Origin: Octopus vulgaris
Lineage: Eukaryota
Reading direction: 5' to 3'
DNA length: 64,000 bases
Assembly (NCBI GenBank): GCA_951406725.2
Contig: OX597821.1
Coordinates: forward strand, 73,966,001 to 74,030,000
The notes below the pieces were generated by a model that saw nothing but the letters and a program-made list of their open reading frames with translations, did no database searches and was not told the origin of the DNA. Position 1 is the stretch's first letter, and the number at the start of each line of letters is the position of its first letter. Positions 15,368 through 40,295 of this stretch are shown here, piece after piece. Both the position numbers and the translations under genes were made by a program.

Positions 15368-15413
15368 ATTTTACATGTTTCGGTTCTTGAAAAAAACGAA
15401 CCTTATCAAAAAT
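15368..15413 (-). ncRNA. Minimal hammerhead, U3-A8 covariant core
   Basis: ATTT-TTGATAA-GGTTC..GAACC-GAAA-CATG-TA-AAAT; stems I and II perfect, palindromic ACATGT, GUA site. Confidence 0.7.
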
Positions 15414-15700
15414 ATTATTAAAAAATATTATAAAAAGTGTAATGGAGAAGAAAAGTGTAATGGAGAAGTTCATAAACGTTTCTTACTGTTAATCGCTATA
15501 TTCCTGTTGAGTGTATTGAAGAAGTCCATTATTGTTTCTTGCTGGTATTAAAAGGAACCGCTTTTTTATTACTTATATATATATATATATATATATATAT
15601 GTGTGTGTGTGTGTGTGTGTGTGTGTTTATATTCGTCATAATGGACCGCTGAAATCTACAAATATTTTTTATTCTCTCTCTGATAACTTTCTCTTATTCC

Positions 15701-15734
15701 TTTCTGTCGAAGAGCGTAGGCTCGAAACGTAAAA
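15701..15734 (+). ncRNA. Minimal hammerhead-like motif, A6U core
   Basis: TTT-CTGTCGA-A-GAGC-gtag-GCTC-GAAAC-GTA-AAA; related to the copies at 51673 and 56519. Confidence 0.55.
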
Positions 15735-16669
15735 TGGTTTTTCAATTTTTCTGAGCGTCAAACTAGCACACTTGCTTGTTGTTCATACACTAATCTTCGT
15801 ATTTTGTTTTTCTATAAATTTCATCTATATATTTACACACCTTATGTACATACATACATACATACATACATACATATATATATATATATATATATATATA
15901 TATATATATATATATATATATATATACGGAGATGTACTTGCATGGCAAATGACCTGGTCTGAAATCGTGTGCTGAAACCAAAAACAACTGCAGCTTAGGC
16001 GTTTATAAGCCATTTAAAAACACACGAAAACCGTTAGATTCGCTTCAACATTTAAATTTAATTTGCCAAAATATTTTTGTCGCTTAATGCAATGGAATAA
16101 ACTTCAGGGAAATTCATCTTGGTCTGTGGCAGCACTTAGGAATGCCTTGCCATCTCTCGTTTTAAATGGATTTATTGCTGTGCCGTCCGGACGGAGGATG
16201 TGTCTTGGAATCTTTATCTGGTAGACCACACTGCCCAACGATTGATGAGAGCTAAATTCTAAAATTATATATATATTATATAAAATCCGTTCTGTCTGTC
16301 TGTCTGTGTGTCTTCTAGGATCTCGGGCATCCTCCATCCGATTACGCTCAAAGTGATATGTAGATACTGACGGTATCAGGGCGTGTATAAGTCTTGAAAA
16401 TATTACAAAAGTCGATTCCAGGTGAGAAAGCGATCGATAAAGTCGTGGGAACGTGAATTTGTAAAATCGTTTTTCTTGGAATAGAAAAATAGTCTATCTT
16501 TATTTCTTATTTTGCTGGTGTCACAAATTTAGCTTAAATCAGTGTTCCTCAAAGGGGAGGCCTATGGGACGGTCGGACAAGTTGTTTTGAGAAAATTTGG
16601 TTTAAATGTTTGACAACTCAGCACCGTCCATTGGACGGGGGGGGGGGGCGTTTTGCTCGTATATATATA

Positions 16670-16932
16670 GGGAGATGTACTCGCATAGCAAGTAATTTGA
16701 TCTGAGATCGTGTGCTGAAACGAAAACAATTGCAGCGTGGAAGGTGTTTGTAAGCCCTCCGCGACCTGTTCACTGACAAAAATCCGTGCTGCATCACGGA
16801 TTTTTGTCAGTGAACAGGTCGCGGATTTTAGCGACAAAAATATTTTGACAAATTAAACTTAAATGTTGAAGTGAATTGAACGGCTTTTGGGTGTTTCTTA
16901 AATGGCTTACAAACACCTTCCACGCTGCAATT
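16670..16932. mobile_element. Tail-to-tail inverted PLE-type terminal repeat with a perfect 31 bp hairpin
   Basis: 16758-16788 is the exact reverse complement of 16795-16825; the outer arms near 16727-16756 and 16903-16932 are also inverted. Same family at 15927-16085. Confidence 0.7.
16803..16852 (+). ncRNA. Hammerhead-like motif with G3-C8 swapped core
   Basis: TTTGTCA-GTGAACA-G-GTCGC..GCGAC-AAAA-ATAT-TT-TGACAAA; 7 bp stem I, 5 bp stem II, palindromic AATATT. G12 reads A in this copy. Confidence 0.5.
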
Positions 16933-17022
16933 GTATATATATATATATAAAACATAGTATAATTATAAACGGGGCAAATTTTAGCCATTTCTCTGCAGAC
17001 TGAACAAAAAAATAATGAACAA

Positions 17023-17063
17023 CCTTAATCGATTTTCAAACCTTATTGGTTTCTCATCAGAGG
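17023..17063 (-). ncRNA. Minimal hammerhead, canonical core
   Basis: CCT-CTGATGA-G-AAACC-aataa-GGTTT-GAAA-ATCGAT-TA-AGG; palindromic AATCGATT. Confidence 0.7.
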
Positions 17064-36550: not shown

Positions 36551-38294
36551 ATAATAATAATAATAATAATAATAATAATAATAATAATAATAATAATAAT
36601 AATAATAATAATAACCACAAATCCGGTGTTTCTCATAGAAGGGGTCCGGACAAATTGTTGCTGTGTCGAATTAGTTCCATTAAAATGGTTTTTCAACATT
36701 TTAAACTCCTTCAAGACCATGGCGAAAAATATTAATTCTTTGGATACAAGAATAATTCGAGGGACCATATTTATTGTCTTCATTCATAAAGTGACATGTG
36801 TGTGAATGTGTGAGTGAATGTGTGTGTGTGCGTGTATGATTGTGCTAAACCTTCGCTATTATTTTGGGGAATTTGGTATTCAATTGTTTTAGAACCGTTG
36901 TACAAATCGATTGAAGCCATTTTATTGTTGCGAGGCACCATCCAGGTAAATGACTCCACTGACCGTGGTGCGGATTTAAATATTGAGCTCACCCAATAAG
37001 AGAAAACAAGGTTGTTCATTTCGAACGATGAAATATAAGTTCTAAATTTCGATGTTGAATTATTAAATGCATGGGGGTTTCCAGTCAAATAAGAAATCAC
37101 CAATTCTACCATGTTCAGTTAGAAAGGTGTAAATTTGAAGTAATTTATGAGTAGAAGCAGACACCAATCTGACCCTTTTTATTGCTATTTAGGTCAATGC
37201 TTTTGAATAGTTTTTTTTTTATCAGTGTCAGATGATATCTTTATCTCCATTTTGTTTTACATAGAATAAAATGAAGCCGAACAGGATAATAAAACATTTT
37301 ATTTTTTTTATTTCCTTTTAATTAACCACAAAGTACAATTACTTTATATTATTTAGCAGCCACATCAAATATCATTTTATCGAAATAAACATTATCATGT
37401 GAAAAATTGATTCGTTGTCTGAGCATAATTTATATTGCCTGTCGGTTCATATCGAATTATGTCTCTGAGCATAATTCCATCTTTGACCCACTGCCAAGCG
37501 TTGTCAATACCGCAAAGGCTGTCAAAATTTCTCGTCAAATAATAAAAAAAAAATGTCTGGCAAGCAATGAAAGGAATTCTCTGTAAAGCTGATAGAGTTT
37601 AGCCGGAAGCGGAACAGATTCATTTGTCTGCTGTGCTCCTTTTTTTTTTTTTTTTCTCCATCTTCATAAAAAAATGTAGAACTGAATGGATAAATGATAA
37701 AAATCACAAAAGAAAAGGAAAGAAGCAAAACAAACAAAAAACAAAAACGATGGAAAAAATATAGACAATGAGAAACTAGGATGGTTGTGAAAGGAAATAG
37801 AAGATAGGAAAAAAAAAATATATATGTACATATATAGAAAAAAGTTGTACGAAAAAAGGAAACTTAGAATATTAATATTTTTCTTCGCCTTTCATTTCTG
37901 ACCCGAGGATATCATTGTGAGAAATGACATATTCCACCTGGGGCAATTATACCATTTTCACTAATGAATGATGACAGCAAATAAAAATGGATTTCATGAC
38001 CAAAAGGATCTGTTCACTAACCTTTAGTCTTGCCGTTCTCCATCAGGTCAAGGGCTTGGATAACTGAAGGGGATCGTTTAGAAATACAGCTATAACGGGG
38101 AAAAAAATAAATAAAATATAATAAAGGCTTACTTCTTGACTTTAGCAGACTGCAGTAAACATCTTGGGAATATTTGGCTCATGAACTGACATTATTTCGA
38201 CGTTTCATATTCTAATCTAGGCTATCATGTATTTCTAATGCAGAGGATTAGAACGAACTAATCAAATTAACTGGAGTAATAATTGAGATTTGTA

Positions 38295-39120
38295 AGGCAG
38301 CGCGCTGGCAGAAACGTTAGCACGCCGGGCGAAACGCTCAGCAGTATTTCGTCTCTCTTTATGTTCTGAGTTCAAATTCCGCCGAGGTCGACATTGCCTT
38401 TCATCCTTGCGGGGTCGATAAATTAAGTACCAGTTACGTACTGGGGTTGAGCTAATCCACTGGCCCCCTCTCACAAAAATTTGAGCCTTGTGTCTAGAGT
38501 AGAGAAGAATATTTTTAAGGGCGGCGAGCTGGCAGAAACGTTAGCACGCCGGGCGAAATGCGTAGCCGTATTTCGTCTGCCTTTACGCTCTGAGTTCAAA
38601 TTCCGCCGAGGTCGACTTTGCCTTTCATCCTTTCGGGGTCGATTAAATAAGTACCAGTTACGCACTGGGGTCGATATAATCGACTTAATCCGTTTGTCTG
38701 TCCTTGTTTGTTCCCTCTGTGTTTATGCCCTTGTCGGTAGTAAAGAAATAGGTATTTCGTCTGCCTTTACGCTTTGAGTTCAAATTCCGCCGAGGTCGAC
38801 TTTGCCTTTCATCCTTTCGGGGTCGATAAATTAATTACCAGTTACGAACTGGGGTCTATATAATCGACTTAATCCGTCTGTCTGTCCTTGTTTGTCTCCT
38901 CTGTGTGTAGCCCCTTGTGGGTAGTAAAGAAATAGGCATTCCCTCTGCCGTTACGTTTGAGTTCAAATTCCGCCGAGGTCGACTTTGCCTTTCATCCTTT
39001 CGGGGTCGATAAATTAAGTACCATTTACGCACTGGGGTCGAGCTAATCAACTTAATCTGTTTGTCTGTTATTGTTGTCCTCTCTATGTTTAGCCCCTTGT
39101 GGGCAGTAAAGAAATAAATA
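38295..39120 (+). mobile_element. Tandem array of SINE family A units (4 cores)
   Basis: GAGTTCAAATTCCGCCGAGGTCGAC recurs at about 38368, 38592, 38777 and 38959. Confidence 0.9.
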
Positions 39121-39516
39121 TTTGAGATTTGTTTTCGAAGAATATTTAGACTTTGCGGCAATGTATTAACAAGATGTTTCCTGTTAATTCACATATTTTT
39201 GTAGATCTGTATTCCATTTCCTGCCAGAGTGAAATTGCCATTTCGACACATATTCTACTGAGTTTTTCTCTTTTATCTCTTTTATCAAATTTCTTCCCGC
39301 AATAATTTATAGAGTTCATGCGAGCAACAACTGATCACAACACACACACACACACACACATACACACACACACACACACACACACACACACACACACACA
39401 CACACACACACACACACACACACACACACACACTTATGTAAACCTTTAACGGCATTGTCAATGTTATAGGTAACTATTCTCGTTAAAATCATCTTTATCA
39501 TAAAACTCACAATGGA

Positions 39517-40105
39517 CAGGGCCGTCGTCAAGCCCCTGGAACCTCTGCAGGGGGCCTCCGCGGTTGAGGTGTCCCATGTTAAGATCAAAGTACGTAGATG
39601 AGTCATCTATTTACTTTGGTTAAGATGTTGAACAAGAAATTAAACTATGTTAACTCAAAATCTCAAGAAATAAAATAGTAATACATTGTACCTGCAAAAG
39701 TTCTTGTAAAAATATTAACATTGTACCACGAACGTGTACCAGACTTTGTGGATTGTCTATGAAATCTATTGAACATGAACTTAGCTCTCAGCTTGATTAT
39801 TCTGAACTGATCGATGATTTCAGGTAGCGAAAAGTGCACCGTGTTTGTCTTTGAAAGTTTCCTGGATTATAAAAATGCTCTTCTATTTATATCTGGAAAT
39901 TTTACTTGTTGAAATTTGTAAACAAATTTAACTTCTTGTACTTTTAAAGATGTTCTTTATGATAACGTGAAATACTGAATCTGAGATAGAATAAAGTAAA
40001 ATATAGCTATGAATAAAAGGTGCGTAGATTGTGAATTTTGATTGAAGGAATGGGGCCCCGAAACAAAAAGTTGCAGGGTCCTCTAAAAGTCAGGCGATGG
40101 GGCTG
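39517..40105 (+). mobile_element. Internally deleted hAT (Ac/Tip100-like) transposon
   Basis: CAGGGCCGTCG / CGATGGGGCTG ends, TSD ACAATGGA/CCAATGGA, and the hAT C-terminal peptide LSMKSIEHELSSQLDYSELIDDF. Confidence 0.8.
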
Positions 40106-40252
40106 CCAATGGATTCCATTGTAAGTATATTTAGTTCTATATTCTGTTTTATTACATTATACACTCTCTATTTTAATACTATATATCTATATTAATATTG
40201 TATTAATTCCTCATCTGCTCCTCTTCAGGTTTTTATACAGTCATCATTTGTT

Positions 40253-40295
40253 GTATCGATTTAAATTACGGAATGAACCTCCTTATCAATGACAC
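40253..40295 (-). ncRNA. Hammerhead-like motif, U3-A8 core, GUAA instead of GAAA
   Basis: GTGTC-A-TTGATAA-GGAG..TTCC-GTAA-TTTAAA-TC-GATAC; palindromic ATTTAAAT. Confidence 0.45.

What the first reader, a model, noticed from the sequence alone, without database searches (positions are those of the whole stretch)
15368..40295. Recurrent U3-A8 covariant catalytic core in four independent hammerhead families
Seen: cores TTGATAA (15368-15413, 35504-35542, 40253-40295) and TTGACAA (22463-22502), each with unrelated stems. Established: C3-G8 forms a tertiary Watson-Crick pair in the active HHR and compensatory pairs can restore activity. Inference: four paired double substitutions are unlikely to be random decay and suggest selected variant ribozymes that canonical CUGANGA searches miss.
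Basis: partly seen in the sequence, partly recalled or inferred. Interest (0 to 1): 0.75.

Follow-up and report, generated by a model that had tools for sequence, protein, structure and literature searches.

The report
Known hammerhead swap, stepwise path preserved
Three of the four motifs are copies of abundant jumping-gene families whose predicted self-cutting RNA carries an already published swapped base pair, the fourth is a lone damaged look-alike, and one family likely preserves the step-by-step route of the swap, because half-swapped versions also spread through the genome.

Summary
Partly confirmed. Three motifs (15368, 22463, 35504; minus strand) are type I hammerhead folds with U3 and A8 fixed family-wide: 94 of 100, 90 of 100 and 28 of 32 copies seen. 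Two lie at 3' ends of Neptune-like Penelope elements, one in a 360-nt retrozyme. The fourth (40253) is single-copy with A13U, near chance level. Natural U3-A8 is published (Perreault 2011; about 1,300 Schistosoma Penelope motifs, Cervera 2014), and this scan noted it before on other DNA of this genome. Independence of the two Penelope families is not shown, and canonical C3-G8 motif clusters outnumber U3-A8 ones 19 to 7. What is added: in the retrozyme superfamily all four states occur (about 587 C3-G8, 103 U3.G8, 620 U3-A8, 37 C3.A8), both mismatches as amplified subfamilies. A tree with the ribozyme removed orders them C3-G8, U3.G8, U3-A8, C3.A8, back to C3-G8 (one C3-G8 clade rejected). So the change was probably stepwise and reversible, not a paired double substitution. 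Cleavage and expression are untested.

The parts
15368..15413 (-). Minimal type I hammerhead fold, core UUGAUAA (U3-A8), 5-bp stem II, palindromic stem III ACAUGU, predicted cut after A17 at 15372; family F1
   Evidence: 532 exact pattern matches in the genome, first 100: 94 U3-A8, 5 U3.G8, 1 C3.A8, 0 C3-G8
15298..15574 (-). 5'-truncated 3' end (pseudo-LTR) of a Neptune-like Penelope element, between TA microsatellites
   Evidence: extent from alignment to other copies; GIY-YIG ORF upstream on the same strand in 7 of 30 loci; the motif lies 800-1160 nt after the stop of the 780-796 aa ORF in 18 of 20 intact copies
22463..22502 (-). Type I hammerhead fold with extended stem I, core UUGACAA (U3-A8), stem II GAGG/CCUC, palindrome ACCGGU; this copy lacks one C at the cleavage site
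   Evidence: fold of a sibling copy z -4.3; 244 matches, first 100: 90 U3-A8, 10 C3.A8, 0 G8
22282..22806 (-). Retrozyme insertion: one 358-360 nt unit plus a 162-nt direct repeat, TA-rich ends
   Evidence: unit folds at z -4.5; tandem spacing 351-361 nt
35504..35542 (-). Minimal type I hammerhead fold, core UUGAUAA (U3-A8), extra A on both sides of a 4-bp stem II, palindrome AGCGCU, predicted cut after A17 at 35508; family F2
   Evidence: 28 of 32 distinct copies U3-A8, 0 C3-G8
35372..35671 (-). 3' end of an older Neptune-like Penelope family (copies 79-92% identical)
   Evidence: related endonuclease remnants upstream on the same strand in 7 of 30 loci
40253..40295 (-). Single-copy hammerhead look-alike with A13U; chance match or old decayed copy, not a family

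Best explanation
Three of the four motifs are copies of multicopy retroelement families that carry U3 and A8 as the family state, and they likely act as self-cleaving type I hammerheads in which the U3-A8 pair stands in for C3-G8. Shown: family-wide fixation; the place at the 3' end of Neptune-like Penelope elements (15368, 35504) or in a 360-nt tandem non-coding unit (22463); conserved stems; a self-complementary stem III. Inferred: two motifs pair through that palindrome and cut after residue 17, processing the element RNA (monomer circles for the retrozyme), which a Penelope reverse transcriptase-endonuclease then copies into TA microsatellites. Inferred from the tree: the pair changes one base at a time in the copying master lineages, so U3.G8 and C3.A8 masters can still spread for a while, and selection for a Watson-Crick 3-8 pair then favours the second change; the retrozyme lineage appears to have gone from C3-G8 through U3.G8 to U3-A8 and on through C3.A8 back to C3-G8. 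The fourth motif is a lone look-alike.
For: Fixation: 94 of first 100; 90 of first 100; 28 of 32. Control for decay: a C3-G8 family has 75 C3-G8, 3 U3.G8, 2 C3.A8, 3 other, 0 U3-A8 in 83 matches. Across 31 motif clusters in 1.4 Mb of fetched DNA: 19 C3-G8, 7 U3-A8, 1 U3.G8, 1 C3.A8, 1 mixed, 2 A3.G8 (Fisher p 5e-5 on the first four). Penelope link. U3-A8 persists in sister families with endonucleases 58% and 66% identical. In 14 retrozyme subfamily representatives U4, G5, A6, A9, G12, A13, A14, A15.1, U16.1 and C17 are invariant and 96.8% of 308 pair cells are standard pairs, 7 of 22 pairs with changes on both sides. State counts in the retrozyme superfamily. The C3.A8 subfamily (27 of 37 matches, 11 contigs) is inherited, not CpG decay: other CpG sites decayed in 1 of 142 cells. 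Tree order with positions 3 and 8 masked, one C3-G8 clade rejected p 0.0002; same with the ribozyme cut out, p 3e-9, and from the 3' flank alone, p 2e-5. Literature: natural U3-A8 described and said to be active in vitro (PMC3088659); U3-A8 in Schistosoma Penelope motifs and dimer model (PMC4209133).
Against: No cleavage data for any of these RNAs. In a full pairwise scan of one type III hammerhead only C3G/G8C rescued; all other changes in that region were low (PMC9901934). Penelope minimal hammerheads cut weakly even as dimers, and 8 of 9 frog retrozyme dimers did not cut (bioRxiv 10.64898/2026.07.22.740005). A C3.A8 master spread, and 12 of 18 motifs in intact F1 copies have U for C at 11.1, which fits weak selection. 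The Fisher test treats related families as independent. The 5' flank alone does not reject one C3-G8 clade (p 0.10). The root rests on one distant family (about 56-64% identity), the groups tested were named after the tree was seen, and one U3.G8 subfamily sits on a long branch inside the U3-A8 group, a fifth change. Only the first 100 matches of each large pattern search were listed.
Confidence: 0.72

Rival explanations
1. Cleavage hardly matters for spread. The core state drifts under AT-biased and CpG mutation and hitchhikes on whichever master is active; U3-A8 is simply the AT-rich end state.
For: C3.A8 and U3.G8 masters spread; weakened stems in the youngest intact F1 copies; 8 of 9 frog retrozyme dimers inactive; Naiad elements proliferate without a canonical hammerhead (PMC8557442); C7-G8 is a CpG in the C3-G8 retrozymes.
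Against: The other core positions are invariant across 14 subfamilies while the loop and position 7 vary; mismatched states are a minority (140 of about 1,350 matches); the inferred return to C3-G8 runs against AT bias; U3-A8 is kept across 34-42% endonuclease divergence.
Confidence: 0.15
2. The half-swapped subfamilies are catalytically poor and are cut in trans. In the double-hammerhead dimer the core of one RNA cuts the site of its partner, so a C3.A8 RNA could be processed by U3-A8 or C3-G8 siblings that share its palindrome and stem I. This would supplement, not replace, the best explanation.
For: The C3.A8 subfamily shares the ACCGGU palindrome and compatible stem I strands with its U3-A8 and young C3-G8 relatives; predicted self-duplex -8.3 kcal/mol; dimer geometry as in PMC4209133 and recalled.
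Against: No test here. C3.A8 copies also occur as pure tandem arrays (360-nt spacing), where pairing in cis should win. A C.A wobble may simply be tolerated.
Confidence: 0.25
3. The young C3-G8 subfamilies regained the canonical core by a short conversion or template switch from the distant C3-G8 family, not by two point changes; C3.A8 would then be a later loss.
For: A tract of 25 nt or less could not be seen in a tree of the flanks; the loop CAAUA differs from the outgroup loop UCAAUA by one base; C3.A8 is sister to the young C3-G8 group, not clearly its parent.
Against: Stem III and stem I of the young C3-G8 copies match the U3-A8 group, not the outgroup; their other loop CGACCA is unlike the outgroup; in the 3' flank tree the young C3-G8 group arises among C3.A8 rows, unresolved.
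Confidence: 0.2
4. The changes are copy-specific decay after insertion.
For: Fits only 40253 (single copy, A13U).
Against: U3-A8 in 94 of 100, 90 of 100 and 28 of 32 copies; decay in a C3-G8 family gave no double change in 83 copies.
Confidence: 0.02

Closest known systems
U3-A8 minimal hammerheads of Cercyon Penelope-like elements, Schistosoma mansoni (Cervera and de la Pena 2014, PMC4209133; parts 1-2 of 4 of the text read)
   Same: Same covariation (about 1,300 hits there), place in pseudo-LTRs, short stem I, palindromic stem III, mostly single truncated copies
   Different: Here Neptune-like families with 6-nt palindromes; F1 lacks the extra base after A9; one family has many intact ORFs
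Natural U3-A8 core variants (Perreault et al. 2011, PMC3088659; section 8 read)
   Same: C3-G8 covaries to U3-A8 in several natural examples; said to be active in vitro
   Different: There rare examples; here hundreds of copies per family
Metazoan non-LTR retrozymes (Cervera and de la Pena 2020, PMC7229834, passages; Li et al. bioRxiv 10.64898/2026.07.22.740005, abstract and passages)
   Same: 351-361 nt tandem non-coding units, type I hammerhead with 6-bp stem I, internal loop and 4-bp stem II, strongly self-paired monomer, likely Penelope-dependent
   Different: Core is U3-A8, U3.G8 or C3.A8 in about 760 of about 1,350 exact matches; I found no such series in the passages read or in searches
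Neptune clade of Penelope-like elements (Craig et al. 2021, PMC8557442; passages)
   Same: One ORF with RT, CX2-5CxxC linker and C-terminal GIY-YIG; hammerhead near the 3' end; inverted truncated copies; microsatellite targets
   Different: Clade membership rests on the linker motif and domain order, not on a tree with reference elements

Membership tests
Type I hammerhead ribozyme | Core U4 G5 A6 N7, A9, G12 A13 A14, A15.1-U16.1, H17 around three stems | tested here: met
   Met for 15368, 22463 and 35504 and their families
Type I hammerhead ribozyme | Same core, for 40253-40295 | tested here: not met
   A13U, extra base at stem I, single copy
Type I hammerhead ribozyme | Watson-Crick pair between positions 3 and 8 | tested here: met
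   U3-A8 in 94 of 100, 90 of 100, 28 of 32 copies; not met in the C3.A8 subfamily, wobble in the U3.G8 subfamilies
Type I hammerhead ribozyme | Match to Rfam Hammerhead_1 (RF00163) at the curated score | tested here: not met
   C3-G8 relatives score 32.2 bits against a cut-off of 34; U3-A8 and C3.A8 loci give no match at E 0.01; none among the 150 of 214 window matches shown
Type I hammerhead ribozyme | Self-cleavage after H17 | not testable with these tools
   Needs in vitro assay
Penelope-like element, Neptune type (F1, F2) | RT followed by C-terminal GIY-YIG endonuclease in one ORF | tested here: met
   F1: 780-796 aa ORFs, GIY-YIG above Pfam cut-off, RVT_1 weak at 17.7 bits. F2: broken remnants only
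Penelope-like element, Neptune type (F1, F2) | CX2-5CxxC linker between RT and endonuclease | tested here: met
   Seen in F1 and F2 proteins; definition from PMC8557442
Penelope-like element, Neptune type (F1, F2) | Placement in the Neptune clade with reference sequences | not tested
   No reference elements were fetched
Non-LTR retrozyme (22463 family) | 150-450 nt tandem non-coding unit with one type I hammerhead per unit | tested here: met
   Spacing 351-361 nt
Non-LTR retrozyme (22463 family) | Highly self-paired monomer | tested here: met
   z -4.5, 0 of 100 shuffles as stable
Non-LTR retrozyme (22463 family) | Expressed as circular RNA | not testable with these tools
   Only assembled contigs of runs of guessed type were on offer

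The most novel reading that the evidence does not exclude
One retrozyme lineage has gone round a full compensatory cycle at the catalytic 3-8 pair (C3-G8, U3.G8, U3-A8, C3.A8, C3-G8), each state leaving an amplified subfamily, and the C3.A8 valley was crossed because in the double-hammerhead dimer intact sibling RNAs cut the defective one in trans.
Probability: 0.27. Interest if true: 0.7.

Novelty: new member of a known kind. Interest (0 to 1): 0.4.

Why it matters
The U3-A8 core itself is known, so the headline claim adds families, not a new ribozyme. It still matters for counting: in 800 kb taken at even steps, 4 of 13 intact motifs were U3-A8, so CUGANGA searches miss about a third here. 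The retrozyme series is the useful part. It offers near-identical natural RNAs in all four states of one catalytic base pair, each proven able to spread. That makes two open questions directly testable: how a compensatory change crosses its mismatch state in a catalytic core, and whether retrozymes and Penelope elements need their own cleavage to spread.

Tried and rejected
Rfam scan of the window: the 150 of 214 matches shown were microsatellite noise, no hammerhead. Repeat finder was swamped by microsatellites. Expression: no RNA holder listed on record; the four runs laid are contigs, two of guessed RNA type and two of unknown type, so they say nothing on transcription, circles or cut ends; they cover the unit under three organism labels, and the C3 letter appears in three of the four. 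No solved structure matched the 781-aa protein. A first tree (65 rows) had misplaced support labels and two rows with inverted-junction sequence; these two and 26 further rows (near-duplicates and single odd variants) were left out of the 37-row tree. A long exact pattern for the old F2 family gave only 6 matches and a short one was 24 of 65 chance, so F2 counts come from the alignment. Independence of F1 and F2: the endonuclease tree has three deep lineages and no outgroup, so one origin, two origins or a reversal all fit (three F2-like rows were labelled U3-A8 by kinship, not by their own motif). No endonuclease was found beside most C3-G8 families in the loci held. Five papers could not be read: Lunse 2016, Hammann 2012, Przybilski and Hammann 2007, Seehafer 2011 and a Nelson and Uhlenbeck 2008 paper (id recalled); no supplements were opened, and these may list more U3-A8, U3.G8 or C3.A8 families and rates.
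Full report
Setting. The window is G000:C8:73966001-74030000 in a 2.8-Gb, microsatellite-rich animal genome; I call it octopus-like from recalled genome features and from earlier scan notes, and did not test this. All four motifs lie on the minus strand. A second descriptor that allows 4-nt palindromes and an extra base after A9 finds four more canonical C3-G8 motifs in the window, at 17060, 51677, 53374 and 56548.

Motif 40253. It reads GUA for GAA and has an unpaired base at stem I. It has no second copy in the genome. It is a chance match or an old ruin, not a family.

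Motif 15368 (F1). The DNA search gave 1,549 candidates, 40 scored. An exact pattern with positions 3, 7 and 8 open gave 532 matches and 0 for the reversed control; the first 100 were 94 U3-A8, 5 U3.G8, 1 C3.A8 and 0 C3-G8. A GIY-YIG frame lies upstream on the same strand in 7 of 30 loci. Twenty copies chosen for intact ORFs hold 780-796 aa frames with RT motifs, a CX4CxxC linker and the endonuclease; 18 of the 20 carry the U3-A8 motif 800-1160 nt after the stop. This is a young Neptune-like Penelope family by the definition in PMC8557442 (passages). In 12 of those 18 motifs C11.1 is U.

Motif 35504 (F2). An older family, 420 candidates, copies 79-92% identical to the query. Of 32 distinct aligned copies 28 are U3-A8 and none C3-G8. 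Broken endonuclease remnants lie upstream in 7 of 30 loci. Its endonuclease is 31-38% identical to that of F1. Sister families at 58% (to F1) and 66% (to F2-like rows) also carry U3-A8. A third lineage has C3-G8: 75 of 83 matches, with 3 U3.G8, 2 C3.A8, 3 other and no U3-A8. That family doubles as the control for decay after insertion: singles occur, doubles do not. The tree of these three lineages is unrooted, so F1 and F2 may share one origin.

Motif 22463. It sits in a 358-360 nt non-coding unit found in tandem and inverted arrays with TA-rich ends. The hammerhead has a 6-bp stem I with an internal loop and extension (z -4.3) and the monomer is strongly self-paired (z -4.5). These are the marks of animal non-LTR retrozymes (PMC7229834, passages), which a 2026 preprint derives from Penelope elements (abstract and passages). 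The window copy lacks one C at the cleavage site.

Four states in one superfamily. Exact patterns in front of the shared stem II gave 690 matches with G8, of which 103 are U3.G8, leaving about 587 that were C3-G8 wherever fetched; 620 U3-A8; and 37 C3.A8. Reversed controls were 0. Of the 37, 27 form one subfamily on 11 contigs. In 11 fetched copies of it from 7 loci, other CpG sites had decayed in 1 of 142 cells and median divergence was 0.5%, so C3.A8 was inherited from an active master. A tree of 37 of 164 extracted monomers, with positions 3 and 8 masked and rooted on the distant C3-G8 family, runs through a ladder of U3.G8 rows to U3-A8 rows; inside these, with 100/100 support, C3.A8 is sister to two young C3-G8 subfamilies. 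One clade of all C3-G8 rows is rejected (p 0.0002), also with the ribozyme cut out (p 3e-9) and from the 3' flank alone (p 2e-5), but not from the 5' flank alone (p 0.10). The groups were named after seeing the tree. One U3.G8 subfamily sits on a long branch among U3-A8 rows. Whatever the root, C3-G8 stands at both ends of a chain that passes through both single-change states; a short conversion tract cannot be excluded. Across 14 subfamily representatives the other core positions are invariant and 7 of 22 pairs show changes on both sides; relatedness inflates that control.

Genome-wide share. In 80 stretches of 10 kb taken at even steps, 13 intact motifs were found against 0.6 in shuffles: 7 C3-G8, 4 U3-A8, 1 U3.G8, 1 A3.G8. 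Over all 1.4 Mb then held, 31 clusters split 19 C3-G8, 7 U3-A8, 1 U3.G8, 1 C3.A8, 1 mixed and 2 A3.G8; many are single motifs and relatives are not independent. Rfam Hammerhead_1 hits C3-G8 relatives at 32.2 bits but not U3-A8 or C3.A8 copies at E 0.01.

Mechanism. Shown: sequence, family state, host elements, self-complementary stem III. From established knowledge: positions 3 and 8 pair in the active fold (PMC3884650, passages); that residue 8 acts through its 2'-OH, so the base can be swapped, is recalled. Inferred: dimer formation, cleavage after H17, circles, and mobilisation by Penelope proteins. Inferred and untested: rescue of the C3.A8 RNA by intact siblings in the dimer. Against easy assumptions of activity: only C3G/G8C rescued in one pairwise scan (PMC9901934, passages), Penelope minimal motifs cut weakly, and 8 of 9 frog retrozyme dimers did not cut.

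Prior knowledge. Natural U3-A8 was reported in 2011 (PMC3088659, section 8) and in about 1,300 Schistosoma Penelope motifs in 2014 (PMC4209133). Full-text searches for U3-A8, pair names, G8A with C3U, compensatory intermediate retrozyme and retrozyme with octopus showed no account of amplified U3.G8 or C3.A8 subfamilies; five key papers were not held and no supplements were read. Earlier notes of this scan report U3-A8 families in this genome, one of them the four versions of the pair; I had reached these results before that look-up, and those short notes give no order of states.

Verdict. The ordered four-state series in the retrozyme is the part worth a bench test. Interest 0.4.

Noticed in passing
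window 17021-17065 (-), 51673-51707 (+), 53368-53415 (+), 56518-56552 (-): Four canonical C3-G8 minimal hammerheads, from families seen elsewhere in the fetched loci except 17060
   Followed up: partly
window about 11150-11195 and 11490-11540 (-): C3-G8 cores with related stem II; the first has a 6-nt palindrome but G at position 17
   Followed up: no
L324, L326-L336 (intact F1 copies): The youngest intact Neptune-like subfamily has a weakened motif: U at 11.1, U17 and a U.U in stem I, yet many copies give identical protein scores
   Followed up: partly
G000, for example C1:37066187 and C2:70382901: A second young Neptune-like family with many 775-aa open frames, about 62% identical to the F2 endonuclease; close relatives carry a U3-A8 motif with A7
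   Followed up: partly
L139:7050 and 8385, L140:2767, L053:2307, L054:2326: Another U3-A8 family with a U.U mismatch at the base of stem II and palindrome ACCGGU; host element not identified
   Followed up: partly
window 22282-22806 and L010-L030: Many retrozyme insertions share both ends, giving 522 nt = one unit plus 162 nt, with the cleavage site inside; fits copying more than once round a circular or multimeric template
   Followed up: no
window 35796-36242 (+) and 30617-31036 (-): Broken GIY-YIG-like frames of other Penelope-type elements, no Pfam match at cut-off
   Followed up: partly
window 8252-8629, 10876-11116, 38289-39052, 52315-52614, 56979-57796: Dispersed repeat with 184-nt internal period, many copies in the window
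   Followed up: no
L341:2954 and L347:2067: Two F2-type motifs with C at position 8 (U3.C8), sporadic or a small subfamily
   Followed up: no
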